Positions 11,349 through 50,603 of a DNA stretch of 64,000 nucleotides are shown here, in pieces. The stretch's first letter is position 1. Each line of letters begins with the position of its first letter. The notes beneath the pieces are model-generated. The model was not told where the DNA came from and did no database searches. It worked only from the letters and a program-made list of their open reading frames with translations. The position numbers and the translations under genes were made by a program. The stretch covers positions 22,846 through 86,845 of the forward strand of contig CAZHHM010000001.1 of the NCBI GenBank assembly GCA_964532225.1, read 5' to 3'. The DNA comes from an uncultured bacterium (GTDB lineage Bacteria; Margulisbacteria; WOR-1; JAKLHX01).

Positions 11349-11401
11349 ATAATATATATCGTCATTTTGCGGCCATAATTTCAGGATTAGCTCTGGGCGG
11401 G

Positions 11402-11409
11402 TGTATAAT
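11402..11409 (+). promoter_or_regulatory. Extended -10 element TGTATAAT, 7 nt upstream of the pfkA ATG (probable leaderless transcript)
   Basis: gtgTATAATattggcATG read directly. The divergent intergenic region 11349-11415 also carries tataat at 11348-11353. Confidence 0.4.
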
Positions 11410-11415
11410 ATTGGC

Positions 11416-12384: not shown

Positions 12385-12680
12385 AAGAAGAAACATTCAA
12401 CATATCAGGGAAGGCCGCCAAAGGATATACGGTATCTTTCGGCGATTTCAGCCTTGTCTTTGCAAAGACCGATAAGGGCATGGTCGGATGCGGGCTTTTT
12501 GACGTTTCTGTGTTCGACAGGTTCGGGTACCCCGCCGCCAAGGCAAAGGCAAAAGAAGGGTTGATAAGCGATATCCCTTCTCTTCTTTCCGCCGAGATCG
12601 TTGCCGCCAACTCCTCCGCGGAAAAGGCCGGAGTAAGGACCGGCATGACAGGCGCACAAGCCCTTGAACTGATGAAATGA
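12381..12680 (+). CDS. DUF1805 / YunC-like small protein
   Basis: GMVGCGLFDV ... GVRTGMTGAQALELMK closely parallels B. subtilis YunC. ATGA overlap with the pfkA stop. Confidence 0.6.
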   Translation: MKEETFNISGKAAKGYTVSFGDFSLVFAKTDKGMVGCGLFDVSVFDRFGYPAAKAKAKEGLISDIPSLLSAEIVAANSSAEKAGVRTGMTGAQALELMK

Positions 12681-24269: not shown

Positions 24270-24329
24270 GGTATTCAGATATTAATCGACAGATAAAGGC
24301 AAAGATTTCACGCTTTGTTGTCGAGCCAA

Positions 24330-25160: not shown

Positions 25161-25162
25161 GG

Positions 25163-26398: not shown

Positions 26399-26476
26399 AA
26401 TTAATCTCCTTAAATATATATCGGGAGATATTTCCTGTGATTTCAGCTAAAGTCAGGCCCGGTTTTCAGTAAGTGC

Positions 26477-34219: not shown

Positions 34220-34229
34220 ATATCTCTTT

Positions 34230-36899: not shown

Positions 36900-36909
36900 A
36901 GCGCACCTC

Positions 36910-39900
36910 TTATTCGACCTTTATATTTAACGTTTTCATCAGGTTCGAGGCCGTTTCTATCACGATATGCTCTTGCGTTTCCTGCATCAGCTTCTTTATC
37001 GCCATCCTTGCGTTCGCGTCGTTAGGCGAAGCCTTCAGCGTTTCAATGCTCCTTATGGCTATGGTCATCTCAATTTGAGTATACAGCTCCACAAGAAGGT
37101 TCGCCTCATCCCTCCAGGCGTTCTGGAGGCTAATTGACGTGGCTCCCTTTGAATTTATAGCTCCAAGCTTATATAGGGTCGCCTTAAGCGAGTCCCTCAT
37201 TTGATAAAGCCGGTCATAGCCCAGCGTGTCCCTGCCGGCGGCGAGCTCTTCTTTAACGCTCGCATAGTTTTCAAAATCTGCGGTAAGCTGCTCATCCCTC
37301 ATTAACCCGAGGAGCAGCTCATAGACCTCTCTGGTGTGAGCTGCCAGCTCTTTCGGCAGAACGAACTTCTCAGGTATCGATGAAGGTGATAGCCAAGCAC
37401 CGTTCAGGAGCGTTTCGCGGATGTTGTATTCGTGGTTCGATACCATATTCTTGAACTCTTGGGTGACAGTGAAGGCCGTCTTTTTTTCATCCAAAGGAGA
37501 AATAAGCCTTAACGTCTCCAGGCTGGACGTGATGCCTTCTACAACCGAAGAGATACCGTCTTTCAAGGCCTTTGAAGGAGCTTTTGACGGATCTTGAGCC
37601 GCGGATGATTCCACCGACCGATTGCGAACGCTTTTGTCCTCGGTAAGTTTCCTGACGGACGGCAGCTCTTCAATGAACCTGTTCTCGATCGTGCCAAGTT
37701 TCGTCGATGACCTTTGTTTGGCAACTGGCAGACCCTCTCTCTTTTGCAGTGCTTTTGTTTTCATGAGCACAGCAGACTGGTAGCCGGAGAACAGAAGGTT
37801 TATTCCCATTCCTAATCCAGCCAAAGTGCCAAGCTGGTCAAAACCTCCCAGGAGCAGCGATGCCATCGATACCCCTGAAGTTGCCAGGGTGAAGCCTAGG
37901 AGCTTGTTTACCCATTGTTTGTACTCCCTGGGAACAAGAGAGCTGGCCCCGGCGCTCGTCAGCATGAAAGTTCCCATCTGGTTCTGCTCGACATACTGCC
38001 AGTTGGCAGACTTGAAATAACCTGCAAGGAAACCGATCTCCTTCGCGGGATTATCCCATAAGCCGGTCCCCAGCACACCGAAGCCGAGAGAGTTCAATTG
38101 AAGCTTGTAATTCATTGTGGCCGAAGCTGTCTTCGCGGCCCAGGTAGGGATGAACAAAGGTATATCCACAGGGAAAGACAAAATATTCCCCATAGAACCG
38201 TTGTAAACCGGCAGGGAACCAAGTTCTATCATCTTTGCCCAGGCCCATTTGTACCAGGTACGTCCGGCAGTTATCTCCCACATCGCCTCAAGGCTGGCGA
38301 AATAGAAGGGATCAAAGCTGGCCTTAGGGTTAAGGCCTTTAACAAGGTCTTTGGCGATCAGCTTGAACGGCTGCACGAACAGCGTTTCGCTGAATATGTA
38401 CCTTACGGCGTTCTGTACCTTGTACTTGTCAAAGGTCTTTTCTGCCGCCATTATGGCGACCATCTCTTTGATCACATGCATCTTCACTCCGAGCATCCAC
38501 GCTACCATTTCCATCTGGGTGTCCTCGGAAACGCCGACGCCCCAGAACTGACCACCGTAGTTCGACATCTTCTTGAAGTTGTCGCTGTTGGTCTCCATTA
38601 TGTCGGCGAACAGAGGATTGAACAGGAACTCCGCGGACATCATGTGCGTCCTTCCGCTCTGTATGCCTCTGAAGGCCCTGATAGATTTTGCCCTGTTCAA
38701 ACCGAAGTGCTCGCCGAATGCCTTTATCGTGCTGTACATGGCGTTCACCTGCAGGCCGTAGAAGTACGGGTCCCTGGCATATTCGCCCGATATCTCGCCT
38801 ACGTTGCCGAACCTTGTCTGCGGGCCGATAACGGATTTTATTATCCCTTCGATCGCCTGAGAGAACCCGCCTTTATTCTCTTTAAGTATCGCAAAAAGAT
38901 CTCCGATCTCTTCTTCGGTGAGGTCCATCCTGTTGTTCGGGTTGTCCTTGTTCCACGTCTCGATTATCTGCTTAAGCTGGACCACGTTGACCCATTTTAT
39001 CCTTTGGGTCTCTCCAAGGTTCTTTACAAGTCCGTTAGATTCCAGCATTTCCCATACATTGGGATGAGATGACAACAATACCTCTTTGTTGATCTTCTTT
39101 TCGTTGAGCTCCTTGTAGATCTCGCGCAATCTCTCGGGGGTGAGCTCGATCCTGCTGTTCCTGTTCTCTTCTTTTTTGTTCCATTCTTTGATCCAGGTCT
39201 CAAGAGACGCGACAGAAACTACTCTGGCTTTGTCCAGCTCCCAGTGATCGTTGGTTATCTCCGACAAGTTCTTTTCTACAAGATCGCGGGTGGTCTGGTC
39301 TATCCTTGAAAGGTCAATATTGTCCGCTCCCAGGTCAAGCGCCTCTTTATTCGGGAGAGATTTTGATACGGGGACCCATTTATTGCCGATCTTAACTGCA
39401 GATGTGAACAGCTGCGGAGAGACCTTTATTTTACCTTCCGGTAGCTCGGTCCCCTGCGGAAGCTTTATCTCATAGGTGTTCACCTTGTGCACAACAAGGC
39501 AAAGTCTGCCGTTGTGATAGGTATCTATTACAGGGTTATAAGTGTCGGTCGCATCGTCCCTTATGGAGGGGTCGCTCTGATATATGTCGCTAAGCCCTTT
39601 GACGCCCATGTCCTTGTTGTCAAGAAGTGACCTGCCGAAATTATCGGTAAATAATCCCTGTCCCAGTTCAAGCTTTGCCTCCTGTCCATCGGGGACGCCT
39701 TCCGGAGCGAACCTTATGGTGACGCTCTTATCGGGATTTACCCTTACCGAGCGTATCCATCCGAGGTCCGGTATGCTTTCTATTATTTTGGCCTCGGCCT
39801 CGTTCGAGATATTATAAACATAGGCCGATCTGTCATGCTCAAGCCCGTTCTGTTCGAGCCTTCTTTCAATTACAAGCAGCCGGTCGGGAGCAGACCCTCT

Positions 39901-42900
39901 TCTCATTTCAAGAGTGGCCGACACATGTTTTGACGCGTCCAGGGTGACCACAGGGGACAGCAATGTCCCTGTTATTCCCTTGCCGGGCGCCTGTCTAAAG
40001 TAATTGCCCAGATCGATAACGGGTCCTGCGGTGCTTGATCCGTCCTCTCCGAACACTGTTACAAGGCCAAGAGCGGAGCCTTTCCGGACCTCTTTTGCCT
40101 CAGTGCTTTTTTCCGGTCTGACGGGATAGAATATTCCGCCGTCAATGAACGCTTTTCCCGAGTTGTCCACTTCGGTTATCCTGTCGCCTTCTTTGATGCC
40201 TTCGAACCAGGCAGCAGGGATAGGGATGGAAACGCCCCTGGGCAGACATACGCCGTTAATGACTATTTCCTTGCCTTCATTCCTGGTCTCGATATTGTAA
40301 TAACCTCCGCCCACTTCGACATGAGACCTTTCGTTATTGTCGTTAAGCACCTCTTTGGACCTGCCGGTCTTGTTGAACAGCATGGGCCTGTCCCTGTCCT
40401 CACACCGCACAAAACCGAGCGTTCCGTCCTCATAACGTATCCTGTACCATGAAATATCGCCTTCTCTGTCAGGGTTTTGTTTGAAAGCATTGGCCTGCAG
40501 CGTTACTTTTCCGTCCTCTCTGGGCAGTCCGAGAGTCTCAAGATATCTCGGGAAAGCGCTTTCAGGGACCTCCATCTGATAGTTTCCGACGAGCTTAAGT
40601 ACAAGATCGCCTTTAAGATAGAACTTCATCTTTGTGGTAGCGTACAGGTTCTTCCAAAGAGGGCTGTCCTTCTCCGCTTCAGGCACGGCAATTTCCACGG
40701 ACCTTGAGCCGTCGCTGACCGTCATGACCGTCTTGCCTTCATTCCATTTGACCTCGAGCTCTACCTCTTTGTCCGAAAGATTGAAGAAATAAACTATCTT
40801 TTCCCTTATCTTTCCGTACTCCGGTATCCCGAAAGTATTTATAAGGGGATTGACGACCGAGCCGGAATCATTGCCTAAGCCCTTTCCAGAAATGAACTGG
40901 GTCTCCGAAAGCTCGGAATAGTTGAGGATGAGCCTGCGCCTGACCTCTCCTGTCTGCTTGTCGGTTTCGGTGATGACATCAACATCTCTCAGCCTTGCCC
41001 AGTCAACGAGACCGTTCCTCTGGGTCACTATTGCAGACCTGTCGACCTCATATGGGATCATCCTTTGAGCTCCGCCTTCGGGAGAATAGGCAAGCTCGAT
41101 ATTGCCGTTGAGCACATCGACCGAGCTTATCGCTTTTTCGGGATACGGGTTGTTGAAGGTGTAGCGCTTGCCCACAGGGAACCTGTAAACAAGAAGGAGC
41201 GCCTTGTTCTCGCGCTCCCTTTCTAGGAGCGCCTGCTGCTTGGAATAAGTAAAGACCTGTATGTCGTTCTTGTCCATCATGACCGCAGAATAGAAATCAG
41301 GGAAGCATATCGCAAGAGGAGAGGTGATATCGATATGTTCCATCAACGCTTTGTCTGAAGTTTCCGAGCCGGCGAAAGCGAACCTCCTGCCGATCTCATC
41401 TTTGGTTGCATGGGCTTTCTCTTTTGTCGCTTTTTCAAGTATGCCGTTGACCTCGGATTCAATTCTCCTTTGCTCGGCCTCATCTTTCGATATCTCGGCT
41501 CCCAGCCTGAAGGCGTCCTTTTTTGTGTAGAACTTTGATTCGACCAGGCCGTCCTTAGTTATCCAGCCGTTGCTTACGAGGGCATTCCAGACCTTGTCGG
41601 CGTTCTCCCCGAACATGGACCGGTCCACTTTTCCTCTTGTATAGAATCCCGCTATCTCGGGCTGCTTAAGCTGGTCCTTGTCGCTCACCCAGAAATAATC
41701 GCCTGCCGCGATCTTCGTTTCCCTGCCGTTGATCACTATCCTCTTTATGCCGGTGCTGCCTTTTTCAAATCCTGTCGTCTTTGACGGGTCGTTATCTGTT
41801 CTGGCGACATAGTCAGAAGTAGAAAGATAGGCTTCGTTCTCCTTTTGAAGGTCCTGCAGCACCCTTTCCGCCTTTATCCAGATATACTTGGAGGCCTCCA
41901 TGGTGCCGGGTTTTGCTCCATACCTGAACTCAGGGTTCTGTACCCTTGTCCATGTGCCGGTCACCCAGTCCACGGTAGGATAGTTCTTGTTCTCGACCTT
42001 CCAGAGCTTATATACCGTAAGCCCCCTGAAAAGGCCTATAGTGGCCACGTTCTCGACCTTCCTTACTTTCCAGTCATCGTGGTTCATTTCTTTTCTCGCG
42101 ATGAACGGATATGTGACGAAGTCAGGATCGAACCTCTTCATGAGGTTCTCATAATCGCGGTAAAAATCCGCTTCGGCTTGAGCGGTGTATGACCCTGAGA
42201 CCGCGAAAGAGCTCCGCGCCTTATCGCGCAGGGACCTGGCTAGAGACCTGTATTCGGACACTCTGGCATCCAGCTGCTCGAAGGCGGCGTTGAAGGCTTC
42301 TTCAGTATATTCCTCATACATCACAGCGAACAGCATCTGCACATACTCTCTCTGGCGGACGTCAGAGATCTCTTTTTTGGCCAGCTCCTCAACATTAATT
42401 TTGCTCTTTGGCCTTAGTTTTCCGGAAACCACATCAAAGAATATGGCAAGCTTTTCAGGCTTATTCAGCTCGGGAGCATTCGCAAGAACGGTCTCTTTGG
42501 AGAAAAGCTTCAGCTCCGGTTTTCCTTTGAATTTTCCATGTATGTCCTCTTGCAAAAATGCCTTAAGCTCCCCGCCCATATATGAGGCAAGCGATTCAAG
42601 GTTGGCGGCAAGGGCCTCAAATTTCTCTGATACTGACATATTTGCAAGGCCCTGTATCTCAAGCTTATTTGTGAGCGCTCTTTGTATATCGCTGATCCAT
42701 CTGAGGAACATCTTTTCTATTTTCACGTTCCCAAGGTCTGCCTGCGGTATCTTGTCAAGCATGTTTACAAAGCTTACATTGGGCTTGCCCATGAGAAGGG
42801 CAGTGAAGAGAGCTCCCTTGGTATGCTCCACGTTGCCTGTGTCCGGATTGATGAGCAGGACCTTTTTATCGTCTGAATATCGCTTGGTCTCCTGCCTGCC

Positions 42901-44484
42901 TATGATGTCCCTGCTCGGTGCCCTGAGCGAAGCCAAATGGCCGAGAGATGTGTTCATCGAATGGAAGGAGCCGTGTAATTCGCTGGCGAACAGCGTTAAG
43001 AAAGACGACCAGAATGTGCCGTAAAGGAACGCAGGCATCAGCGAACCCTCGGCGGCCCCGGCCAGGAGGGACAGCCCTGCTCCTCCGGCGAACCCGAGGT
43101 AGGGAAGCCTGGTCATAAAAGCGTCCCTTGAGGTCATCTTGAACCATTTTGAGGACTGCTCTTTTTCGGACCATTTCCAGCCCGGAAGCCATGATGAGGG
43201 CATGTTCCTAAGACCTACTGTTGCGCCCAGGGCGATAACAGGTAAAGCTATCGATAGCGGCGTCAGCCAGCTCAATGCGCTGGTCCCGCTCATCGCATTT
43301 TCAAAAAGCAGCCATGAAGAACCGCCGAAAAGAGTGGCCCTAGCGGCAAGATAGGTGCTTTCGGTGAACACGGCGCGCACGGCGGAGCCGGTCATTTTCC
43401 TCATCAGCCACCGTTCTCCGGGATTGGTCTGCCCTCCGTAAGAGCGGTCAAGCTCGTTGAGCTTATCGTTCTTCAGGTGACGGTAATATGCGTACAACCC
43501 GCCCATTAGACCGAACGTCGAGAAAGGCGATATGTCCTGGAACCCGTTCTGTATGTCGAAACCGTGGGACATAAGGGTGTTCCCGAATACTACCGAACCA
43601 GCAAGGACGGCCAAAGGACGGCCGTAGGTGGACAGGTATGAAGCGAACCTCTTTGCCGAACCTTCGGGAAGACGGTCAGCGAACCTGGCCGAGACCAGGG
43701 ACAATCCGCCGAATGCTGCAACTGCAGAGGTGAACAGATCAAAATTCAGGAGCGTGTTGGTCACCGCAAGTACGCCTGCCGTGCCCAGCGTCATTGAAAG
43801 CCCGAACTTGAAAGAGGTCTTTGTAACGGTCTTTGGCGAAAGCCACGACACCCCGAAGAACTCGTGGTTCCAGAAGCCTGAGGCTTTTGCCGTAGTATAG
43901 CTCAGAGCTTTCAGCGCGGTGTATTGTCTGGTGACCGGATTGTCGGCAGGGTCAAGCTCTATCTTTAATGACGCCTTAAGCTCTTCAAGTCTGCTTGGCC
44001 TGGTAAAGAGAGAGATGTCCCCGATGGTCAGCCCCGAGGCAGCGGCATCCTTACTTACTATCCCGGCAGATGCCAGGGACCCTGAGAACAGGCCGGGTTC
44101 GAGCTCTTTCTGGTTCATGATATTCTCGAACAATATTGTCCTGTCGGCGAACCCCATGAATTTGAGCGGAGAAAGAGCGCTTGCTATCCCCGAAAGATTG
44201 AACCTTGGCAGAACGGGATTGTCTTCAGGGCTGAGGTTTATCCCTTCAGTCCTCCAAAGAAGGTCAAGGCGTCTGCCGGTGACGGTCCGTGAGATATCGC
44301 CGATCCCCATCCGGTCGATAGGGGTGAGCTCGTTGGTTATACCGAAGCGGTAAAGGGTCTCATGGGAGATATTGCTATTTCTGATATTGTCCAGCAGGCG
44401 GGTGCGGTCGGCAAAGCCCAGGCCTATGCCGTGCCTTGCAGGGCCTCTGTCAACGCCTCTGGTAAAACTGCCTGTTCCTGTCAT
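36910..44484 (-). CDS. Giant hypothetical integral membrane protein (2524 aa): N-terminal cluster of TM helices, ~1700-aa soluble middle region, C-terminal TM helix cluster
   Basis: Hydrophobic helices near the N-terminus (GLSMTLGTAGVLAVTNTLL, ALSWLTPLSIALPVIALGATVGL, LPYLGFAGGAGLSLLAGAAEG) and near the C-terminus (NSLGFGVLGTGLW, LLGFTLATSGVSMASLLLGGF). SD GAGGGGG 6 nt upstream of the ATG. First gene after a 220-bp AT-rich gap. Confidence 0.65.
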   Translation of the reverse strand: MTGTGSFTRGVDRGPARHGIGLGFADRTRLLDNIRNSNISHETLYRFGITNELTPIDRMGIGDISRTVTGRRLDLLWRTEGINLSPEDNPVLPRFNLSGIASALSPLKFMGFADRTILFENIMNQKELEPGLFSGSLASAGIVSKDAAASGLTIGDISLFTRPSRLEELKASLKIELDPADNPVTRQYTALKALSYTTAKASGFWNHEFFGVSWLSPKTVTKTSFKFGLSMTLGTAGVLAVTNTLLNFDLFTSAVAAFGGLSLVSARFADRLPEGSAKRFASYLSTYGRPLAVLAGSVVFGNTLMSHGFDIQNGFQDISPFSTFGLMGGLYAYYRHLKNDKLNELDRSYGGQTNPGERWLMRKMTGSAVRAVFTESTYLAARATLFGGSSWLLFENAMSGTSALSWLTPLSIALPVIALGATVGLRNMPSSWLPGWKWSEKEQSSKWFKMTSRDAFMTRLPYLGFAGGAGLSLLAGAAEGSLMPAFLYGTFWSSFLTLFASELHGSFHSMNTSLGHLASLRAPSRDIIGRQETKRYSDDKKVLLINPDTGNVEHTKGALFTALLMGKPNVSFVNMLDKIPQADLGNVKIEKMFLRWISDIQRALTNKLEIQGLANMSVSEKFEALAANLESLASYMGGELKAFLQEDIHGKFKGKPELKLFSKETVLANAPELNKPEKLAIFFDVVSGKLRPKSKINVEELAKKEISDVRQREYVQMLFAVMYEEYTEEAFNAAFEQLDARVSEYRSLARSLRDKARSSFAVSGSYTAQAEADFYRDYENLMKRFDPDFVTYPFIARKEMNHDDWKVRKVENVATIGLFRGLTVYKLWKVENKNYPTVDWVTGTWTRVQNPEFRYGAKPGTMEASKYIWIKAERVLQDLQKENEAYLSTSDYVARTDNDPSKTTGFEKGSTGIKRIVINGRETKIAAGDYFWVSDKDQLKQPEIAGFYTRGKVDRSMFGENADKVWNALVSNGWITKDGLVESKFYTKKDAFRLGAEISKDEAEQRRIESEVNGILEKATKEKAHATKDEIGRRFAFAGSETSDKALMEHIDITSPLAICFPDFYSAVMMDKNDIQVFTYSKQQALLERERENKALLLVYRFPVGKRYTFNNPYPEKAISSVDVLNGNIELAYSPEGGAQRMIPYEVDRSAIVTQRNGLVDWARLRDVDVITETDKQTGEVRRRLILNYSELSETQFISGKGLGNDSGSVVNPLINTFGIPEYGKIREKIVYFFNLSDKEVELEVKWNEGKTVMTVSDGSRSVEIAVPEAEKDSPLWKNLYATTKMKFYLKGDLVLKLVGNYQMEVPESAFPRYLETLGLPREDGKVTLQANAFKQNPDREGDISWYRIRYEDGTLGFVRCEDRDRPMLFNKTGRSKEVLNDNNERSHVEVGGGYYNIETRNEGKEIVINGVCLPRGVSIPIPAAWFEGIKEGDRITEVDNSGKAFIDGGIFYPVRPEKSTEAKEVRKGSALGLVTVFGEDGSSTAGPVIDLGNYFRQAPGKGITGTLLSPVVTLDASKHVSATLEMRRGSAPDRLLVIERRLEQNGLEHDRSAYVYNISNEAEAKIIESIPDLGWIRSVRVNPDKSVTIRFAPEGVPDGQEAKLELGQGLFTDNFGRSLLDNKDMGVKGLSDIYQSDPSIRDDATDTYNPVIDTYHNGRLCLVVHKVNTYEIKLPQGTELPEGKIKVSPQLFTSAVKIGNKWVPVSKSLPNKEALDLGADNIDLSRIDQTTRDLVEKNLSEITNDHWELDKARVVSVASLETWIKEWNKKEENRNSRIELTPERLREIYKELNEKKINKEVLLSSHPNVWEMLESNGLVKNLGETQRIKWVNVVQLKQIIETWNKDNPNNRMDLTEEEIGDLFAILKENKGGFSQAIEGIIKSVIGPQTRFGNVGEISGEYARDPYFYGLQVNAMYSTIKAFGEHFGLNRAKSIRAFRGIQSGRTHMMSAEFLFNPLFADIMETNSDNFKKMSNYGGQFWGVGVSEDTQMEMVAWMLGVKMHVIKEMVAIMAAEKTFDKYKVQNAVRYIFSETLFVQPFKLIAKDLVKGLNPKASFDPFYFASLEAMWEITAGRTWYKWAWAKMIELGSLPVYNGSMGNILSFPVDIPLFIPTWAAKTASATMNYKLQLNSLGFGVLGTGLWDNPAKEIGFLAGYFKSANWQYVEQNQMGTFMLTSAGASSLVPREYKQWVNKLLGFTLATSGVSMASLLLGGFDQLGTLAGLGMGINLLFSGYQSAVLMKTKALQKREGLPVAKQRSSTKLGTIENRFIEELPSVRKLTEDKSVRNRSVESSAAQDPSKAPSKALKDGISSVVEGITSSLETLRLISPLDEKKTAFTVTQEFKNMVSNHEYNIRETLLNGAWLSPSSIPEKFVLPKELAAHTREVYELLLGLMRDEQLTADFENYASVKEELAAGRDTLGYDRLYQMRDSLKATLYKLGAINSKGATSISLQNAWRDEANLLVELYTQIEMTIAIRSIETLKASPNDANARMAIKKLMQETQEHIVIETASNLMKTLNIKVE

Positions 44485-44611
44485 TGCCAGCCCCCTCTAT
44501 ATATATATCGATAAGAACCATCCGGAATCCCAGTCCCGGAAACCCCCGTTCCGTGACTTCTTATATATAACGGGTTTAACTATTAAAAACTTGCATAAGA
44601 TTTACAATTCC

Positions 44612-44644
44612 TTAATAGTCGAACCTTAACATCTCTTCGTTCAT
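44612..44644 (-). other. Possible 10-codon upstream ORF (MNEEMLRFDY) with a perfect SD GGAGGGAGG, in the 5' leader of the giant operon
   Basis: Minus-strand reading ggagggaggtATGAACGAAGAGATGTTAAGGTTCGACTATTAA, 128 nt upstream of the 2524-aa gene ATG. Confidence 0.2.
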
Positions 44645-44705
44645 ACCTCCCTCCGATTTCACGGAATATTAGGGTGTCCCGAAGATTTTTCAAGGCAAGC
44701 ACGAA

Positions 44706-45701
44706 CTATCTGTTACGAGGACCCCGTTTCCCCAGGCTTGAGCCTTCCAGCCCGTCAGCTATCACTATGGTCTGGTATGCCATAAAGGTCTTTCCGAAAG
44801 CCACGCAATAGTATGTCCCGGGCTCAGCCATCTTGCCGTTGTCGTATAGGCCGTCCCAGTATACGAACTGCTCTCCCACGGAGCGTGACACCGATTCTCC
44901 TATTGTCCTGACGATATTGCCTTCGGTATTGTTCGTCCTTAGTGCGTTATAGATCGACCGTTTTGCCGAGAGGGCCCAGTTGAACTTGAGGAAGTCCTTG
45001 GTCTCTTTGGTAAGGTCAGAGTATTCCACCAGCCTTGTAAACCCTTCTTTCGTTTCGATATCCGAGGTAGAAGAGCCGGTAAAGAGATCACCGAGCCGGT
45101 CTATCATTTCGGGGCATGAAAGAAGCAGCCTTTCTTTATCAAAAACAACGTTCCTGGCAAAGCTCACGGGGATGTTGATCTCCCTTGCATCATCGATAAG
45201 AGCGTATTTCGGGGTAACGTTCCCGTCCCTGTCGACATACCCGTTGTTCAGCATTGCCTTCCACATTTCTTCAACCTGCCCGGATACTCTTTCTTTCAGA
45301 CATCCGACATCAAGCGTCCATTTGTATATCCTGATGGTGATGGAGTCAGGCTTGATCAAATGGTAGGAGAGGACCTCGATCTCGTTCTTTGCCATTCCGC
45401 CGGGATCATCATCTTCTCCATCCATTTTCCAGCCTTTCGTGGTCCACACCGCCATTACCGGCTTCTTGATCTTAGTGTCCACGATGGAGCTCATCGTCTG
45501 GGACCTGTCGGCCAGCTCATAACCCGCGAGATACGTCTCCATTTCTTTCGCGAGCCTGACGGAGTATTTGGCACAGGCGGCTACCGCGGAGTCCCTTTCC
45601 TTTACCAGGTCCAGAACGCCGTTCCTGTTGCCGAAATGGTCTCCGTTCGTGAGGAACGTCCGGAATTCTTTGGGGGCCTCGGATATTTTTAATGATGACA
45701 T
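44706..45701 (-). CDS. Hypothetical protein (331 aa) with conserved N-terminal ISEAPK/GN-NG module and C-terminal FlgD-Ig/T9SS-CTD-like beta-sandwich
   Basis: N-terminus MSSLKISEAPKEF...FGNRNGVLD is paralogous to the 924-aa protein N-terminus. C-terminus VYWDGLYDNGKMAEPGTYYCVAF. Contains the MWKAMLNNGYVDRDGNVTPKY module. Confidence 0.55.
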   Translation of the reverse strand: MSSLKISEAPKEFRTFLTNGDHFGNRNGVLDLVKERDSAVAACAKYSVRLAKEMETYLAGYELADRSQTMSSIVDTKIKKPVMAVWTTKGWKMDGEDDDPGGMAKNEIEVLSYHLIKPDSITIRIYKWTLDVGCLKERVSGQVEEMWKAMLNNGYVDRDGNVTPKYALIDDAREINIPVSFARNVVFDKERLLLSCPEMIDRLGDLFTGSSTSDIETKEGFTRLVEYSDLTKETKDFLKFNWALSAKRSIYNALRTNNTEGNIVRTIGESVSRSVGEQFVYWDGLYDNGKMAEPGTYYCVAFGKTFMAYQTIVIADGLEGSSLGKRGPRNR

Positions 45702-45716
45702 GATATTCTCCTTTGC

Positions 45717-46703
45717 TTATTTATCGATAGAAGGGACAAACCCCCATTCGGTTCCAAAGAACGGATAGAACAACGGGTTCAGTTTTGAAGAAAACTCAGC
45801 CTTTACCCCTGCAAAAAGGGAGATCCTGACCTTTTTACTGTAAAAACCGGATACCAGGTCCGTTATGACCGCGGCTGATACAACAAGCGGGCGGATGAAG
45901 CGTTTGTCGCCGGGCTGCACCGCGGAAGTCAGCTCCAGCACGGTCTCGGGAACAGAATTATCCACGGATAAGTATTTGTAGAACGGAGTAAATCTGCCGG
46001 AGATGCCGATGTTAAAAGTCTCCTTGTTATACTCCAACAGATCGCGCGAGTTTATCTCGGCAAAGAGTCCGGCAAACAGTCCATGGCCCGAGACATTCCA
46101 GAACCTGCCGGTCAGGAACTTTACCCCGAGGAGGTTCTTAGGGGTCCTTATGAAGAAATCCACTGCCCAGGAATTTAGCAGTTCGGGCTCGTCGTCTTTC
46201 TCGGCTTTCTCGACTAATGTTGCTGCCGGAACAGAGGAATACGGGAACCCGGTGTTTTCTTCTTCGCCGATATAGGGCGCTTCCGGAAGGTCCATCACAG
46301 GAGGGCAATCACATCCTTTTTTTTCTTCTGTTCCGGTCTGCTGAGCGGCAGGTGCTCCGGCGCAGACGCCCTGTCCGGCAAAGAGCTTGCCGCCCGGGAA
46401 CATATCAGGGTCAAGGCCCGGATGCCTTTTCAGCAAAGCAGCTTTGGTGTCGCCTTTTTGGACCACAGCGCATTCACCGCTCATATCCGGTATCATAAGC
46501 AGTTGCCCGACCCGGAGCCTGTCGATATCCTTAAGAGGTATATCGCTTGATCTGGCGATATACTCCATCGGCACATTGTGCCTCCTGGCAATTTTTGCAA
46601 GAGTATCTCCTTTTTTCACCTTGTATCCGGTAAAGACATACCGGGACGGCTCAAATGAACCGTAGGCCTTTCCCATCGACCTGACATAAGGATGTTCGCT
46701 CAT
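45717..46703 (-). CDS. LysM domain protein with beta-rich C-terminal half
   Basis: YKVKKGDTLAKIARRHNVPMEYI....LRVGQLLMIP is a canonical LysM, followed by a second degenerate LysM-like stretch; 328 aa; no signal peptide. Confidence 0.7.
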   Translation of the reverse strand: MSEHPYVRSMGKAYGSFEPSRYVFTGYKVKKGDTLAKIARRHNVPMEYIARSSDIPLKDIDRLRVGQLLMIPDMSGECAVVQKGDTKAALLKRHPGLDPDMFPGGKLFAGQGVCAGAPAAQQTGTEEKKGCDCPPVMDLPEAPYIGEEENTGFPYSSVPAATLVEKAEKDDEPELLNSWAVDFFIRTPKNLLGVKFLTGRFWNVSGHGLFAGLFAEINSRDLLEYNKETFNIGISGRFTPFYKYLSVDNSVPETVLELTSAVQPGDKRFIRPLVVSAAVITDLVSGFYSKKVRISLFAGVKAEFSSKLNPLFYPFFGTEWGFVPSIDK

Positions 46704-49477
46704 TATTTTTCTCCTCCGTATACGATCTCGAACGGTGCGAAGTTCTCTTTTTCGCTGTCATATTTGATGCCCAGGAAGTAAATGCCGGGCCGAACTGTCT
46801 TCCCTGAGAAATCCCTGCAATCCCAGAATACTTCGGCCAGAGGATTTATCTTAGAGAACCTGGTCCTTGCGGTGACATCCGAGACCTCGGTATCCATGGT
46901 GGGCATATATTTCAGGAGTTTGATCACAGCCCGTTTTCTGGCAAGGTCGAATTTTTCAAGAAGATATGCTTTGGCGTTCTCGCTCATGCCGTCGTTCCTG
47001 ATCAGCGCAGGGGCATCCTCCTTAAAGGTCATTGCCGCTGTCTCGGGGTCAACAAAGAACTTGAACAACCGGTCCTTTATCTCCGGTACCCGGGCGACGA
47101 TCCTGTCCCTTTCCACACTGCCCGTTGTAACATGTTCGGCGGAAAGCTCGCTCTCGGATTCTCTCAAAAGGAAGGCAAGTTTCTTTGTGGCATTACCGTC
47201 AGCGTCTATGTAGCCTTTATCCTTCAGTTCGCTCCAGAAAGCTTCAGTATCCTTGACCAGGCCCGTGAACTGCTCCTTTTTGTAGGCCATCCTGAATATC
47301 GAAGCTCTGTAGGTTACCAGTTCCGGGTCATTAGGCGTGGCAACAAGAAGCAGGCGTATGCGGTTCTTCTCTGCCGGACCTATCGTGAACGGATCGTTGT
47401 ATGGAGGTTCGAACACAATGTCTTCATGGTCCTTCATGTAATTTGCAGGGTTCACTTTTCCCGGAACGGACAGATCGTTAGTCTTTTCAGAATATCCAGG
47501 AGCGAAGGTCACGCCGCCGGAAATACTGCCGGTAAGACCGCTCAACAAGCTATGTGAAAGGTTAACGCCGGCGGTCCAGGGGGAAAAGCTGCCGGAAGTC
47601 GCGGTCCTGACCAGGTATTCTTTAACGGAGGGCTCTTTACCGGCGAGGTCATCTGGCAGCGAGACGCCCTGTTCTTTGTCCAGGTACTCCCAGATCGCCT
47701 CTCTCAGGAACACATGCGGTATGTTTAGCACGACCTCTTCGATGTTGTCCCTGAACACCAGATCGTCGCTTGAGACATCCTTGAACAAAAGGGCTTTATA
47801 TTCTTTGTTGTAGACCTCTTCCCCGAAACCGTATCTTTTGAGCATGTTCAGAAGGTCAGCTTTTCTTATAGAGACGCTTCCTGTATTCCTGATGTCCGTG
47901 AAGCGCTCGCCGGTCCCGCCTTTTCCGGTGAGATATCCGTTGCCGATAAGATGTTCCGCTATCTTTCTCCCTTCTCCGGGGAATTCATCGTCCATCTCAT
48001 CAATTACATCCTGCCTGTCGCGCTGAAAAGTGTAAGTAAAGATCAAGCCGAAGGAAAATGGTCGCCCTTTAAAATTGATGCCGAACGGGCTTTTAACCCC
48101 AAAATAGGCGCCGCCGGCAAAACGGCTTGCTTCCGTTCCGGTCTCGATCTTTCCGGTAAGTTCGGTCAAGCGGAGGGAGTTGATGTTCACTGATGATACG
48201 GCCCTGGCCATCACACGGCCGATAACAGGGAGCTTGAAAGGATAGCTGAATACCGTCGAGAGCTCGACGGGCGGGAGACGGTACCTGCCAAGACCCGGAG
48301 CAGCATCAAGCAACGCCCCCTTCATCTCGGGGGACGAGATCAGGGAGAAAATAAGAGCTAAAGGCACCACTGACGAAGAGACCTCTGTATCCATGCTCAA
48401 ACTCTCAACAATAAAGTTATTGAATGCTCTCTCAAGAGATACCCCGGCAGAGAACAGAGGCATTGAAAACGCTCCTTGAGGAAGAACGGCCCTGTAGCCG
48501 GTGTAAGGGCCTGCGAATATTCGGGTATTACCGGTAAAGAACAATCCGCCGGCTGACATTGACCCTTTAAATCTCAAACCTAGTATCGTGTCAGAGGATG
48601 TTTCGGCTTTGATCCCTGCAACGAACGATCGCCAGAGCGTGACGGATATCCCTGCGTCTTTTAATTCAATCGAAGGCGAAAAACCGCCGAAAAGCCCAAG
48701 TTTTCCGTTATTACCCAAACGGAAAGAGGCGAGGACCGAGAACAGCGAGTTTTCCGGCGCAAGGACCTTAAAGGCAGCATCATTTATCGCGGAGTTCAGC
48801 AGCGAGAAGCCGTCGTTCTTATCGGCAAGCATGTTCAATACATGGCCAGCGCAAGTGCCTATGGCCCTCTGGCGGGCTTCCGGGCTCATTTCTTTTTCCA
48901 TAAGTATATCGGTCAAACCCTCTATGGCGGAGGGGAACTTCTCTCCGAAGAACTTCGCCCCGTCCCTGTAATCCGTAAGAAGCAGAGACGCGTTCTCCTG
49001 CCTGCTGTTCTTTGGGTCCAAAGAGGCCGTGCCTTTCCAGCCCCGGAAAAAGTCGGCCACAGTCCTGCTGTCTATGCCCAGCGAGAAGATATTGTTACCG
49101 ATATAGTCTGCCAGTTGGGCGCCGTCGCCATCGCCAAAGCTGCCAACCGGGGTTTTAAGAAAATCCATTACATAGAAGTCCTTTGAAAAATGCTCGTATC
49201 CTAGCTTTGCCGATACACCGAAGGAGAACCTGCTTTCCCGGTATCTCATGTACTGATACTGTCTGTCGGGCCATCTTTCAAGTGTGTCGAAGCCTTTTGA
49301 GAATAGATACTGCCTCATGTCCTCCATTTGAGAAACGTCCCAGGCATTGCACTCGGCAACAGCCCTTCTTGCTTCTTCAAGCGAGTCTATCTGCCCGTTG
49401 CCGTTGCCGTGGTTGTCGGCGTACGAAAGATAAAGTTCCAGCTTTTTCGGGGCTTCAGAAATATTTATACTTCCCAT
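46703..49477 (-). CDS. Hypothetical protein (924 aa), larger paralog of the 331-aa protein: same N-terminal module, beta-rich middle, two NGYxDxDG modules, FlgD-Ig/CTD-like C-terminus
   Basis: N-terminus MGSINISEAPKKLELYLSYADNHGNGNGQID. C-terminus EVFWDCRDFSGKTVRPGIYFLGIKYD. Modules FWSELKDKGYIDADGNATKKLAF and IAEHLIGNGYLTGKGGTGERF. Confidence 0.6.
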   Translation of the reverse strand: MGSINISEAPKKLELYLSYADNHGNGNGQIDSLEEARRAVAECNAWDVSQMEDMRQYLFSKGFDTLERWPDRQYQYMRYRESRFSFGVSAKLGYEHFSKDFYVMDFLKTPVGSFGDGDGAQLADYIGNNIFSLGIDSRTVADFFRGWKGTASLDPKNSRQENASLLLTDYRDGAKFFGEKFPSAIEGLTDILMEKEMSPEARQRAIGTCAGHVLNMLADKNDGFSLLNSAINDAAFKVLAPENSLFSVLASFRLGNNGKLGLFGGFSPSIELKDAGISVTLWRSFVAGIKAETSSDTILGLRFKGSMSAGGLFFTGNTRIFAGPYTGYRAVLPQGAFSMPLFSAGVSLERAFNNFIVESLSMDTEVSSSVVPLALIFSLISSPEMKGALLDAAPGLGRYRLPPVELSTVFSYPFKLPVIGRVMARAVSSVNINSLRLTELTGKIETGTEASRFAGGAYFGVKSPFGINFKGRPFSFGLIFTYTFQRDRQDVIDEMDDEFPGEGRKIAEHLIGNGYLTGKGGTGERFTDIRNTGSVSIRKADLLNMLKRYGFGEEVYNKEYKALLFKDVSSDDLVFRDNIEEVVLNIPHVFLREAIWEYLDKEQGVSLPDDLAGKEPSVKEYLVRTATSGSFSPWTAGVNLSHSLLSGLTGSISGGVTFAPGYSEKTNDLSVPGKVNPANYMKDHEDIVFEPPYNDPFTIGPAEKNRIRLLLVATPNDPELVTYRASIFRMAYKKEQFTGLVKDTEAFWSELKDKGYIDADGNATKKLAFLLRESESELSAEHVTTGSVERDRIVARVPEIKDRLFKFFVDPETAAMTFKEDAPALIRNDGMSENAKAYLLEKFDLARKRAVIKLLKYMPTMDTEVSDVTARTRFSKINPLAEVFWDCRDFSGKTVRPGIYFLGIKYDSEKENFAPFEIVYGGEK

Positions 49478-49489
49478 CTCCGGACCTCC

Positions 49490-49702
49490 TTAATTAATGT
49501 ATTCCCTTATCCCGCCGCAAAGTCCGGGGTTAAGGCGCTCAAGCTCCTGCAGGATATCATCCGCGTCCCTCTCGTACAGCTTCATGAATTCCGCCGCTGT
49601 CTCCCTGTCGTCCCCTGCGAATTTATCCAGAAGATACGCCACTGTTTTTGCTTTATTAGAGCCGCAATTAGAGGATACCGGCCTTATCGATGTTATTTTC
49701 AT
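49490..49702 (-). CDS. Small hypothetical protein (70 aa), first gene of the minus-strand operon
   Basis: Strong RBS AAGGAG 7 nt upstream of the ATG; sequence MKITSIRPVSSNCGSNKAKTVAYLLDKFAGDDRETAAEFMKLYERDADDILQELERLNPGLCGGIREYIN; 12-nt gap to the next gene. Confidence 0.4.
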   Translation of the reverse strand: MKITSIRPVSSNCGSNKAKTVAYLLDKFAGDDRETAAEFMKLYERDADDILQELERLNPGLCGGIREYIN

Positions 49703-49757: not shown

Positions 49758-49825
49758 TGGGGGCGGGGAGCAGGGAAGGGGGGAAGAGGGAACGGGGAAC
49801 GGGGAACAGGGAACAGGGAACGGGC
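49758..49825 (+). repeat. G-rich polypurine heptamer repeat (RGGGAAC)n, second copy of the element at 17388-17430
   Basis: GGGGCGGGGAGCAGGGAAGGGGGGAAGAGGGAACGGGGAACGGGGAACAGGGAACAGGGAACGGG, ending 23 nt upstream of the MBL gene ATG. Confidence 0.6.
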
Positions 49826-49847: not shown

Positions 49848-50603
49848 ATGGACTTCATTAAATTCCTTGGCACAGCGGGCGCGAGGATAGCAGTTGCCCG
49901 GCAGGCAAGGGCTTCCGGAGGGATATGGCTGCGTCTTGACGGAGTGAACCTTCAGATAGATCCCGGTCCTGGAGCGCTGGTGAAATGCTTTGAGTCCAGG
50001 CCGAAACTTGACCCGACCTCGCTTGACGCGATACTTCTTTCGCACAAACATCTTGACCACAGCGGCGACATAAATGCCATGATCGAGGCCATGACGCTGG
50101 GAGGTCACGCGAAAAAAGGCGAGATCTTCGTTCCGCGCGATGCCCTTAACGGCGACAGGGTGGTCCACGAGTACAACAGAGTATATTTGGAAAAAGTGAA
50201 CGTTCTTAAGGAAGGTTCTAAGTATGAGGTCGGAGGTTTGAAGTTCGAGACGCCGGTCAGGCATATACACGGGTGCGAGACCTTCGGCTTCAGGTTCAGG
50301 GGAAAGAACTGTTCGGTATCCTATATAACAGATACTGATTATTTCAATAAACTGGCGCTCAAATACAAAGCGGATGTCCTTATAATCTCCGTCCTTACGG
50401 AGAACGAGAACAGGTTCGACCACCTTTGTATAAACGAAGCCGGTTCGATAATCGAGCGTATAAGACCGAAAATCGCCATCCTTACGCATTTCGGTATAAA
50501 GATGATAGAGGCCGGTCCGGAGAGGATAGCCAGGGACCTTTCCAGAAGGACAGGGGTCCGCATCATCGCCGCGCGGGACGGACTTCGCGTGCCTTTGCGT
50601 TGA
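49848..50603 (+). CDS. MBL-fold metallo-hydrolase
   Basis: LSHKHLDHSGD (HxHxDH) motif; 251 aa. Confidence 0.8.
   Translation: MDFIKFLGTAGARIAVARQARASGGIWLRLDGVNLQIDPGPGALVKCFESRPKLDPTSLDAILLSHKHLDHSGDINAMIEAMTLGGHAKKGEIFVPRDALNGDRVVHEYNRVYLEKVNVLKEGSKYEVGGLKFETPVRHIHGCETFGFRFRGKNCSVSYITDTDYFNKLALKYKADVLIISVLTENENRFDHLCINEAGSIIERIRPKIAILTHFGIKMIEAGPERIARDLSRRTGVRIIAARDGLRVPLR

What the first reader, a model, noticed from the sequence alone, without database searches (positions are those of the whole stretch)
44706..49477. Paralogous pair (924 aa and 331 aa) sharing an unusual N-terminal module and a C-terminal Ig-like beta-sandwich, bracketing a LysM protein
Both proteins start M[SG]S[LI].ISEAPK, then [DN].[FH]GN.NG.[IL]D...E...AVA.C with no hydrophobic signal. 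The loop NGNGQID...E resembles an EF-hand/dockerin-type Ca-binding loop, and a similar DENGKGNGQIK loop occurs near the N-terminus of the 889-aa GH26-like protein.

Both end in W[DC]....GK...PG.Y beta-sandwich domains resembling the FlgD-Ig / T9SS-CTD clan. The conserved N-terminal module on signal-less proteins could be a non-classical targeting or docking tag.
Basis: seen in the sequence. Interest (0 to 1): 0.55.

Follow-up and report, generated by a model that had tools for sequence, protein, structure and literature searches.

The report
Paralog pair with novel N-terminal domain
Two neighbouring genes of an uncultivated bacterium encode related proteins that share an undescribed 60-residue N-terminal domain, a second short module found in every large protein of the surrounding giant-gene cluster, and a known Ig-like tail; their function is unknown, and the best guess is that they are attachable accessory parts of an uncharacterised cell-envelope machine.

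Summary
The 924-aa and 331-aa proteins are paralogs: N-terminal residues 1-68 are 38% identical (E=1e-10) and about 210 C-terminal residues are 26% identical (E=4e-15). They flank a true LysM protein, and none of the three has a Sec signal peptide.

The tail is a FlgD_ig-type beta-sandwich, not a T9SS sorting domain.

The core of that string (2524-aa, 889-aa and 2580-aa proteins) recurs in six metagenome loci. The pair and the LysM gene are absent wherever the upstream side of those loci is visible.

Best reading: lineage-specific accessory or adaptor subunits. Function is inferred, not shown.

The parts
46703..49477 (-). p924, the 924-aa paralog. It has the N-module, a unique beta-rich central region (~res 70-690), the GYID module and a FlgD_ig-like tail.
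   Evidence: ORF. RBS. Only a self-hit among 5.8 billion clusters and in the exhaustive HMMER search. No Pfam, NCBIfam, PHROG or PADLOC family.
49280..49477 (-). N-module of p924 (res 1-66).
   Evidence: BLASTP E=1e-10 to p331. Eight-sequence alignment A2 with invariant I6, A9, P10, D21, E35, A39 and C43. AF2 pLDDT 93.2, pTM 0.80.
47078..47272 (-). GYID module of p924 (res 736-800, FWSELKDKGYIDADGNATKKLAF...).
   Evidence: Regex and HMM searches. Profile region 733-787 hits P0031 and P0049.
46706..46915 (-). FlgD_ig-like beta-sandwich of p924 (res ~855-924).
   Evidence: Profile positions 862-916 hit FlgD_ig repeat proteins at E down to 1e-17. Those hits were verified as PF13860.
45717..46703 (-). 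LysM protein p328. The LysM domain is res 27-72 (46488..46625). The C-terminal half is beta-rich. Its start overlaps the p924 stop (TAATG).
   Evidence: Pfam LysM E=1.1e-10. Overlap and GGAGGAG RBS. Weak similarity of res 167-221 to p924 res 218-274, E=0.005.
44706..45701 (-). p331, the 331-aa paralog: N-module, GYID module and FlgD_ig tail.
45510..45701 (-). N-module of p331 (res 1-64).
   Evidence: AF2 of full p331 gives res 1-60 pLDDT 89-98 with the same secondary structure as p924.
45102..45299 (-). GYID module of p331 (res 135-200, MWKAMLNNGYVDRDGNVTPKYAL...).
44802..44945 (-). FlgD_ig match in p331 (res 253-300).
   Evidence: Pfam PF13860 E=1.3e-5, 25.6 bits, cutoff 27. NCBIfam FlgD E=0.0037. 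PDB 3osv FlgD E=0.37.
49490..49702 (-). 70-aa ORF with an AAAGGAG RBS, the first gene of the string, 12 nt upstream of p924.
   Evidence: Only a weak WXG100 hit, E=0.14.
44485..44705 (-). 221-nt spacer between p331 and p2524. It holds a promoter-like site and a structured RNA, and may separate the accessory trio from the core genes.
   Evidence: TTGAAA-16-TAATAT at 44693..44666. Fold z=-2.55. No Rfam match.
36910..44484 (-). p2524, a 2524-aa probable membrane protein and conserved core of the cluster. It carries two GYID modules (41425..41625 and 38899..39093).
   Evidence: Homologs at 38-45% identity in six metagenome places, L082/83 and L090-L095. Hydrophobic segment blocks. No Pfam, NCBIfam or PDB match.
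34230..36899 (-). p889, with a GH26-like domain and a helical C-terminal half. It has a GYID module at 35496..35693 and a possible degenerate N-module at 36705..36830 (res 24-65).
   Evidence: Pfam GH26 E=2.7e-8. GYID. N-module hint. Homologs in related loci.
26477..34219 (-). p2580, a 2580-aa helical-repeat protein with a beta-rich C-terminus. It has a GYID module at 31520..31714 and a weaker one near 28967..29023.
   Evidence: Porin_4 E=6e-4, below cutoff. GYID. Its homolog P0031 in L082 has three GYID copies.

Best explanation
p924 and p331 are true paralogs built from three shared modules.

1. A compact ~60-residue N-terminal domain. It has a short N-terminal strand paired to an Asn/Gly-rich loop and packed on three helices. 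It is a new, autonomous, mobile domain family that sits at the very start of the polypeptide.
2. A ~55-residue 'GYID' module (W-x2-L-x3-G-[YFW]-[ILV]-[DT]-x2-G-x-[VL]-x2-K-[FY]). The pair shares it with all three giant or large proteins encoded just downstream.
3. A C-terminal FlgD_ig-type beta-sandwich.

p924 additionally carries a ~620-residue beta-rich insert.

The most likely role, which is inferred and not shown, is as follows. Together with the translationally coupled LysM protein, they are lineage-specific accessory or adaptor subunits of the uncharacterised machine encoded by the conserved core p2524 (probable membrane protein), p889 (GH26-like plus helical repeats) and p2580 (helical repeats plus beta-rich C-terminus). 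The GYID module would be the element that ties the proteins to that machine or to its common ligand. The N-module would be a protein-protein docking or oligomerisation domain that needs a free N-terminal position. The LysM and FlgD_ig parts would contact glycan or cell-wall material.

None of the proteins has a Sec signal. Either the assembly is cytoplasmic or inner-membrane associated, or it is exported by an unknown route.
For: Shown:
- Paralogy.
- The N-module folds on its own with high confidence: pLDDT 93.2 and pTM 0.80. The fold is reproduced in p331.
- The N-module starts at residue 1 in p924, p331, P0007, P0032, P0047 and P0050/52. P0007 and P0032 have tandem second copies. The C-terminal parts are unrelated: HEAT repeats, beta-rich regions, FlgD_ig.
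- Seven positions are invariant across eight copies.
- The strict GYID pattern occurs six times in the six-frame translation of the 64-kb window, all in p924, p331, p2524 (twice), p889 and p2580.
- An HMM built only from window copies finds three copies in P0031, the p2580 homolog of another cluster, with best E=1.8e-6.
- The core trio is conserved in six metagenome places.
- Gene layout: the p924 stop overlaps the LysM start, 15 nt separate LysM and p331, and a 221-nt promoter-like spacer precedes p2524.
- The FlgD_ig assignment is supported.

Inferred: the docking role and the link to glycan, the latter from LysM, GH26 and GH16 in the string.
Against: - No N-module is found in any of the related core clusters (and the HMM scan).
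- The p924/LysM/p331 trio is absent upstream of the core in L093 and L094, the two loci where that side is visible. The N-module is therefore not an obligatory part of this machine.
- Other N-module proteins sit in unrelated neighbourhoods, one a HEAT/MORN operon and one among housekeeping genes.
- The rest of p331 could not be modelled (pLDDT <50), so nothing is known of how the modules are arranged.
- LysM, FlgD_ig, GH26 and GH16 domains normally act outside the cytoplasm. Yet no operon protein has a signal peptide, while another ORF of the window (12677..13255) has a classic one. Localisation is therefore unresolved.
- No partner or ligand has been identified.
Confidence: 0.4

Rival explanations
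1. The N-module is a divergent single EF-hand, derived from an EF-hand pair, that binds Ca2+. The N-terminal strand would replace the second loop. It would act as a calcium-dependent switch or a dockerin-like Ca-stabilised connector.
For: - AF2 gives helix (11-22), loop (23-32), helix (33-46), with a beta-bridge at loop residues 29-30 paired to residues 4-5. This is the place where EF loops pair.
- Loop positions 3 (N/D), 5 (N), 6 (G), 8 (I/L) and 9 (D/N), and often 12/13 (E/D), are EF-compatible.
- The gene next to the N-module protein P0047 starts with a sequence that aligns to the N-module (hhalign P=8e-4). It then carries a canonical PS00018 loop and sub-threshold EF-hand_7 and EF-hand_6 hits (E=0.027 and 0.025).
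Against: - Loop position 1 is H/F/I/V/Y/K/Q, never Asp.
- None of the eight copies matches PS00018.
- No EF-hand or dockerin Pfam hit at E<=1.
- No PDB sequence hit.
- There is only one loop per module, whereas dockerins have two.
Confidence: 0.2
2. The N-module is a trafficking domain. It would mark signal-less cargo for a Sec-independent export or assembly route, in the way LXG, MIX or WXG-type N-terminal domains mark cargo of type VII and type VI systems. It would deliver the LysM/FlgD_ig-bearing proteins to the cell surface.
For: - The position at the extreme N-terminus is strict, and the C-terminal 'cargo' is variable.
- All nine proteins of the gene string lack Sec signals although several carry typically extracytoplasmic domains: LysM, FlgD_ig, GH26, GH16 and Por_Secre_tail.
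- Four of eight module copies have a second Cys 7-10 residues after invariant C43, which could form a disulfide.
- A 70-aa helical ORF sits directly upstream, with a weak WXG100 hit at E=0.14.
Against: - No secretion ATPase or known secretion-system gene is present in the 64-kb window.
- The module is a folded domain, unlike type III signals.
- It also heads HEAT-repeat proteins, which are usually cytoplasmic.
- The GH16, LysM, p985, p889 and p2580 proteins lack both a Sec signal and the N-module, so the module cannot be the general export tag of the string.
- The WXG100 hit is not significant.
Confidence: 0.15
3. The proteins are cytoplasmic. The whole string would build an intracellular or inner-membrane-associated assembly, and the 'extracellular' domains would be re-used for cytoplasmic glycan or protein binding.
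For: - No signal peptide is present in any of the nine proteins.
- The GYID module also occurs in a radical-SAM enzyme, P0049 (E=8.9e-4 against 1.84 billion proteins). That enzyme lies in a cytoplasmic glycan-biosynthesis cluster of GT2, radical-SAM and ABC genes.
- N-module proteins with HEAT repeats exist.
Against: - LysM and FlgD_ig are overwhelmingly extracytoplasmic.
- p985 passes the NCBIfam T9SS sorting-domain cutoff (39.2 bits against 23).
- The beta-rich, porin-like segments in p2580 (Porin_4 E=6e-4), p924 and the LysM protein look like outer-membrane strands. For p924 and the LysM protein this is judged by eye only.
Confidence: 0.2
4. The similarity is chance or an annotation or translation-start artefact.
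For: None beyond the shortness of the N-terminal motif.
Against: - E=1e-10 and E=4e-15 in the pairwise comparison.
- Independent homologs exist in metagenomes, including internal copies.
- The AF2 model is confident.
- Synonymous differences at the DNA level show selection on the protein.
Confidence: 0.01

Closest known systems
FlgD Ig-like domain (Pfam PF13860, FlgD_ig). It is found in the flagellar hook-cap protein FlgD and as repeats or tails of many bacterial surface proteins.
   Same: The C-terminal ~70 residues of both proteins carry its signature...G..V+.......G...v.WDG.d..G..v..G.Y. Profile hits are to bona fide PF13860 proteins.
   Different: The match is below Pfam's gathering score for p331 and undetected for p924 as single sequences. 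There is no FlgD N-terminal domain (PF03963) or Tudor domain, so these are not FlgD. There is a single copy at the C-terminus.
EF-hand and dockerin Ca2+-binding helix-loop-helix modules.
   Same: Helix, Asn/Asp/Gly loop, helix, with a beta-bridge at loop positions 7-8. The module is small and sits at a protein terminus. Dockerins likewise attach varied catalytic 'cargo' to a scaffold.
   Different: There is no Asp at loop position 1. The PROSITE pattern fails. There is one loop rather than two. No Pfam or structural match was found. No cohesin-like partner is known.
C-terminal three-helix subdomain of M4 metalloproteases (thermolysin 255-316, LasB, ProA).
N-terminal trafficking or anchoring domains of modular bacterial proteins. 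Examples are LXG/WXG (type VII), MIX/FIX (type VI), and SLH domains of OmpM/Slp-type outer-membrane tethers in Cyanobacteria and Negativicutes.
   Same: A small helical domain fixed at the N-terminus, one or two tandem copies, in front of interchangeable C-terminal parts. Two members combine it with porin-like beta-rich regions, as SLH-porins do. This comparison rests on my own knowledge of those families.
   Different: No sequence or profile similarity to any of them was found. SLH-porins have Sec signals. No type VI or VII machinery is visible in the window.
Synthase-dependent exopolysaccharide systems (Bcs, Pga, Pel, Alg). These have an inner-membrane synthase, a periplasmic glycoside hydrolase with TPR repeats, and a TPR-porin.
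   Same: The gene order resembles that layout: giant membrane protein, then GH26-like plus helical repeats, then helical repeats plus beta-rich C-terminus, followed by a GH16 beta-glucanase. This concerns the surrounding cluster, not the pair.
   Different: No glycosyltransferase family or solved synthase matches p2524, even with a six-sequence profile. No signal peptides are present on the presumed periplasmic or outer-membrane parts. This is a lead only.

Membership tests
EF-hand (PROSITE PS00018; Pfam EF-hand_1/5/6/7) | 12-residue loop D-x-[DNS]-x-[DENSTG]-[DNQGHRK]-x-[LIVMC]-[DENQSTAGC]-x2-[DE], with Asp at position 1. | tested here: not met
   The regex finds no match in any of the eight N-module copies or in any operon protein. 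Position 1 is H/F/I/V/Y/K/Q.
EF-hand (PROSITE PS00018; Pfam EF-hand_1/5/6/7) | Profile match to an EF-hand family. | tested here: not met
   No EF-hand Pfam hit at E<=1 for p924 or p331. No PDB sequence hit with profile A2.
EF-hand (PROSITE PS00018; Pfam EF-hand_1/5/6/7) | EF-hand pair fold (four helices, two paired loops). | tested here: not met
EF-hand (PROSITE PS00018; Pfam EF-hand_1/5/6/7) | Ca2+ binding. | not testable with these tools
   This needs ITC, a 45Ca overlay or a structure of the purified domain.
Dockerin (Pfam PF00404) | Two tandem 22-residue Ca-binding segments, a profile match and a cohesin partner. | tested here: not met
   Each module has a single loop. There is no Dockerin_1 hit. 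No cohesin is found in the window ORFs scanned.
FlgD_ig domain (Pfam PF13860) | Profile match to the Ig-like beta-sandwich with the WDG...G....G.Y signature. | tested here: met
   p331 gives E=1.3e-5 and 25.6 bits, 1.4 bits under the gathering score. The joint p924+p331 profile hits over 40 proteins through positions 862-916. Six that were checked have PF13860 at E<=5e-33. p924 alone gives no Pfam hit.
Flagellar hook-cap protein FlgD | N-terminal FlgD domain (PF03963) and Tudor-like domain; a flagellar gene neighbourhood. | tested here: not met
   Neither domain is present. The NCBIfam FlgD match covers only the Ig part, at 17.2 bits against a cutoff of 230. No flagellar genes are nearby.
Type IX secretion cargo (type A CTD, TIGR04183 / PF18962) | Match to the sorting-domain model at the C-terminus. 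| tested here: not met
   There is no Por_Secre_tail or TIGR04183 hit for p924 or p331. p985 further down the string does pass (39.2 bits against 23).
Type IX secretion cargo (type A CTD, TIGR04183 / PF18962) | N-terminal Sec signal peptide for crossing the inner membrane. | tested here: not met
   There is no hydrophobic N-terminal segment. The ORFs cannot be extended upstream.
Type IX secretion cargo (type A CTD, TIGR04183 / PF18962) | T9SS machinery genes in the genome. | not testable with these tools
   Only 64 kb of the genome is available, and its contig was not retrievable.
LysM peptidoglycan/chitin-binding domain (PF01476), for the bracketed gene | Profile match above the gathering score. 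| tested here: met
   E=1.1e-10, 41.7 bits against a cutoff of 20.9, residues 27-72.
New N-module family (defined here) | ~60 residues at the extreme N-terminus, consensus I.I..AP.KFR.YL..AD..GNKNG.ID...EA..AVA.C, with invariant I6, A9, P10, D21, E35, A39, C43. | tested here: met
   p924 and p331 score 99 and 88 bits against the eight-copy HMM, which includes these two sequences, so these scores are not independent. The independent evidence is: a profile built only from p924 and p331 found the module in four other protein families. p889 res 24-65 is only a weak candidate at 7.6 bits, E=0.15.

The most novel reading that the evidence does not exclude
The gene string encodes a previously unknown multi-protein envelope system of uncultivated bacteria. 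Its core would be the 2524-aa membrane protein, the GH26/helical-repeat protein and the 2580-aa helical-repeat/beta-rich protein. Its components would be assembled or exported without Sec signals. The two undescribed modules, the N-terminal three-helix domain and the GYID module, would be the recognition tags that recruit interchangeable accessory proteins such as p924 and p331 to it.
Probability: 0.12. Interest if true: 0.85.

Novelty: categorically new. Interest (0 to 1): 0.55.

Why it matters
If the reading holds, the window defines two new protein modules and places them in a conserved cluster of giant proteins with no annotation.

- **The N-module.** It is a confidently folding 60-residue N-terminal domain with no sequence or structural relative.
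- **The GYID module.** It is a 55-residue module shared by every large protein of the gene string.
- **The cluster.** It recurs in several uncultivated lineages, probably including Margulisiibacteriota.
- **The localisation puzzle.** Nine consecutive proteins carry typically extracellular domains (LysM, FlgD_ig, GH26, GH16, a T9SS-type tail) but have no Sec signal. This is a concrete and testable puzzle about protein localisation in these bacteria.

The N-module is small and predicted with high confidence, so it is a good target for structure determination and binding assays. The practical value for now is annotation: two new domain families and a marker for a new gene cluster. There is no mechanistic handle yet.

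Tried and rejected
1. Word-index homolog searches with p924, p331 and the N-module alignment returned only self-hits or nothing.
It placed the organism nearest Margulisiibacteriota (61% identity), but none of the 80 loci holds operon homologs.
3. The window's own contig could not be retrieved.
4. AF2 of full-length p331 was confident only for residues 1-60. The GYID and middle-region fold therefore remains unknown.
6. afdb50 was unavailable.
8. A mixed-fragment alignment (A4) was misaligned by MAFFT and discarded.
9. The N-module alignment was too divergent for pattern scans of contig collections.
10. I had recalled a resemblance between p2524 motifs (GPQTRFG, GVSEDTQMEM) and processive beta-glucan synthases, and read the L093 upstream gene as a UDP-sugar pyrophosphorylase. 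No Pfam, NCBIfam or PDB search supports either idea. Both are dropped as claims.
11. No internal duplication of the shared C-terminal region was found in p924 res 486-690.
12. tblastn against plasmids gave nothing. PADLOC gave only one weak hit, PDC-M65A at E=0.018. PHROGs gave nothing for the pair.
13. The GYID profile has no PDB or Pfam relative.
14. The literature search found no description of these proteins.

Full report
**Anatomy**

The region is part of a long minus-strand gene string. In order it contains:
- a 70-aa ORF (49702..49490)
- p924 (49477..46703)
- a LysM protein p328 (46703..45717)
- p331 (45701..44706)
- a 221-nt spacer
- p2524 (44484..36910)
- p889 (36899..34230)
- p2580 (34219..26477)
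- a GH16 beta-glucanase (26398..25163)
- p276
- p985, which has a T9SS-type C-terminal domain

p924 and p331 have strong ribosome-binding sites and start at the first possible start codon. The p924 stop overlaps the LysM start (TAATG). The neighbouring SecD is 61% identical to that of a Candidatus Margulisiibacteriota MAG, so the organism is probably from that group. This is an inference from one gene.

**Check of the observation**

BLASTP of p924 against p331 gives 38% identity over residues 1-68 (E=1e-10) and 26% over 212 C-terminal residues (E=4e-15). The pair is therefore paralogous. p331 corresponds to p924 minus its central ~620 residues.

The middle gene has a LysM domain above Pfam's threshold. 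Neither paralog has a hydrophobic N-terminus. Codon-level comparison shows synonymous differences, so the conservation acts on the protein.

**The N-terminal module is a real, new domain**

An exhaustive HMMER search of 1.84 billion representative proteins used a profile built from the pair. It found no other full-length relative. It did find the N-terminal ~65 residues in four other protein families:
- P0007 (148 aa, two tandem copies)
- P0032 (387 aa, two copies plus a beta-rich C-terminus)
- P0047 (1192 aa, HEAT repeats)
- P0050/P0052 (231/329 aa, helical)

In all six protein families the first copy begins at residue 1. Eight copies align with invariant I6, A9, P10, D21, E35, A39 and C43. 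The consensus is I.I..AP.KFR.YL..AD..GNKNG.ID...EA..AVA.C.

AlphaFold2 with this shallow alignment gives pLDDT 93.2 and pTM 0.80. The model has a beta-bridge at residues 4-5, helix 11-22, a loop 23-32 with a bridge at 29-30, helix 33-46 and helix 48-60. The same structure is reproduced in p331.

The domain matches nothing in Pfam, NCBIfam, PHROGs, PADLOC or PDB sequences. Its structural neighbours are weak:
- Foldseek gives at best E=3.9 against PDB and E=2.0 against viral models.

**EF-hand and dockerin question**

The local geometry is helix, Asn/Gly loop, helix, with a bridge where EF loops pair. Loop positions 3, 5, 6, 8 and 9 resemble an EF-hand. Several tests argue against membership:
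- Position 1 is never Asp.
- No copy matches PROSITE PS00018.
- No EF-hand or dockerin profile hits.

One hint of a distant relationship remains. The gene next to P0047 begins with a sequence that aligns weakly to the module (hhalign P=8e-4). It then carries a canonical EF-hand loop with sub-threshold EF-hand Pfam hits. I therefore do not file the module as an EF-hand or dockerin. I keep 'EF-hand-derived, possibly Ca-binding' as a rival at about 0.2.

The statistics are weak: hhalign P=0.0046, and hmmsearch --max E=0.15, although it is the best non-member of 2533 ORFs. It is a possible degenerate third copy.

**The C-terminal domain**

p331 hits FlgD_ig (PF13860) at E=1.3e-5, which is 1.4 bits below the gathering score. 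Most of the 50 hits of the joint profile are to its positions ~860-916. Six that were checked are strong PF13860 proteins, including a genuine FlgD.

The pair lacks the FlgD N-terminal and Tudor domains, and matches no T9SS sorting-domain model. The tail is therefore a FlgD_ig-type beta-sandwich. It is not FlgD and not a T9SS CTD.

The 26%-identical C-terminal stretch contains a motif, W-x2-[LMI]-x3-[GE]-[YFWL]-[ILV]-[DTK]-x2-G. This motif occurs six times in the six-frame translation of the whole 64-kb window. All six are in p924, p331, p2524 (twice), p889 and p2580. A weaker seventh copy lies in p2580.

The motif extends to a ~55-residue module (alignment A8). An HMM built only from window copies finds three copies in P0031, the p2580 homolog of another cluster (best E=1.8e-6). 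The exhaustive search also hit P0031 and a radical-SAM enzyme, P0049 (E=8.9e-4). P0049 lies in a GT2/radical-SAM/ABC glycan cluster. The module has no Pfam or PDB relative.

It links the pair to the giant proteins downstream more directly than the N-module does.

**The surrounding system**

The p2524, p889 and p2580 proteins have homologs in the same order in six metagenome places: L082/83, L090, L091, L092, L093 and L094/95. p2524 homologs are 38-45% identical over the C-terminal ~650 residues. That region contains long invariant stretches such as IKSVIGPQTRFG, RDPYFYGL, RGIQSGRTH, GVSEDTQMEM and EITAGRTWYK.

None of these proteins has any family or solved-structure match apart from GH26 in p889 and a sub-threshold Porin_4 hit in p2580. 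p2524 has N- and C-terminal blocks of moderately hydrophobic, Gly-rich segments.

Where the upstream side of the core is visible (L093, L094), there is no p924, LysM or p331 homolog. No related locus contains an N-module. The 221-nt spacer before p2524 carries a promoter-like site and folds more stably than shuffles (z=-2.55). The trio is thus a lineage-specific addition in front of a conserved core.

**Localisation puzzle**

None of the nine proteins of the string has a Sec signal. ORF 12677..13255 in the same window has a textbook one. Yet the string carries LysM, FlgD_ig, GH26 and GH16 domains and a T9SS-type tail that passes NCBIfam's cutoff.

Two readings remain open:
- The proteins may be exported by an unknown route. 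In favour, four of eight N-module copies have a second Cys that could form a disulfide.
- The assembly may be cytoplasmic or inner-membrane associated. In favour, the GYID module occurs in a radical-SAM enzyme, and N-modules occur on HEAT-repeat proteins.

I cannot decide between them with these tools.

**Verdict**

Best explanation, at confidence 0.4: p924 and p331 are modular accessory or adaptor proteins of an uncharacterised machine. They are built from a new N-terminal docking-type domain, a new cluster-wide GYID module and a FlgD_ig tail.

What is shown: the paralogy, the domain boundaries, the fold of the N-module, the distribution of both modules, and the conservation of the core.

What is inferred: the docking role, the link to the core machine, and any glycan contact.

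Noticed in passing
window 21312..49702 (-), N-termini of nine consecutive genes: None of the nine proteins of the string has a Sec signal peptide, although several carry typically extracytoplasmic domains (LysM, FlgD_ig, GH26, GH16 BglS-like, Por_Secre_tail). ORF 12677..13255(+) in the same window has a classic signal peptide.
   Followed up: partly
window starts of p924 (49477), p331 (45701), p985 (24269), p276 (25160): Four of the nine operon proteins begin M-[GS]-S-[ILV]-[NK] (MGSIN, MSSLK, MGSVN, MSSVK). No other large ORF of the window does. N-module homologs elsewhere do not share this, so it is window-specific. It could be a short N-terminal signal or a translation-initiation preference.
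   Followed up: no
window 36910..44484 (-), especially 37495..38871: The C-terminal ~460 residues of the 2524-aa protein are very strongly conserved, with over 100 invariant columns across six metagenome homologs. Motifs include GPQTRFG, RDPYFYGL, RGIQSGRTH, GVSEDTQMEM and AGRTWYK. There is no Pfam, NCBIfam or PDB match. In L093 the gene is split into two ORFs (5849..9103 and 9104..11782).
   Followed up: partly
window 21312..24269 (-): The 985-aa protein has a T9SS type A sorting domain above NCBIfam's cutoff (TIGR04183, 39.2 bits against 23; Pfam Por_Secre_tail E=1.8e-9). It has no signal peptide, and the genome is probably outside the Bacteroidota.
   Followed up: no
window 49764..49824: A tandem heptamer array, GGGAACA x ~6 (period 7/14/21), lies in the divergent intergenic region. 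That region sits between the MBL-fold hydrolase gene (49848..50603, +) and the 70-aa ORF that heads the minus-strand string.
   Followed up: no
window 49490..49702 (-): A 70-aa ORF with its own RBS lies directly upstream of p924. It looks helical by eye, and its only hit is a non-significant WXG100 match (E=0.14).
   Followed up: partly
window 44485..44705 (-): The 221-nt spacer between p331 and p2524 has a sigma-70-like site (TTGAAA-16-TAATAT). Its RNA fold is more stable than shuffles (-65.1 kcal/mol, z=-2.55). There is no Rfam match.
   Followed up: partly
L084 13585..15462 (+), the gene after the N-module/HEAT protein P0047: This 625-aa MORN-repeat protein has an N-terminus that weakly resembles the N-module. 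It then carries a canonical EF-hand loop (DQNGDNKLSPWEV, a PS00018 match; EF-hand_7 E=0.027). It may be an evolutionary link between the N-module and EF-hand pairs.
   Followed up: partly
L098 10001..11191 (+) (P0049): A radical-SAM enzyme carries a GYID-type module (LWKDLENNGYIHADGTILDKF). It sits in a cluster of about ten radical-SAM genes, GT2 glycosyltransferases, a methyltransferase and an ABC-2 exporter.
   Followed up: no
window 45717..46703 (-) res 167-306 against p924 res 218-295: There is a weak collinear similarity between the beta-rich C-terminal half of the LysM protein and part of the central region of p924 (E=0.005, plus SLFAGVKAEFSS / SFVAGIKAETSS). They may share a beta-rich domain.
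   Followed up: partly
window 45510..45701 (-) (p331 res 7-71): There is a weak PADLOC hit of the N-module region to the candidate defence protein PDC-M65A (E=0.018, 12 bits, profile positions 125-189 of 398).
   Followed up: no
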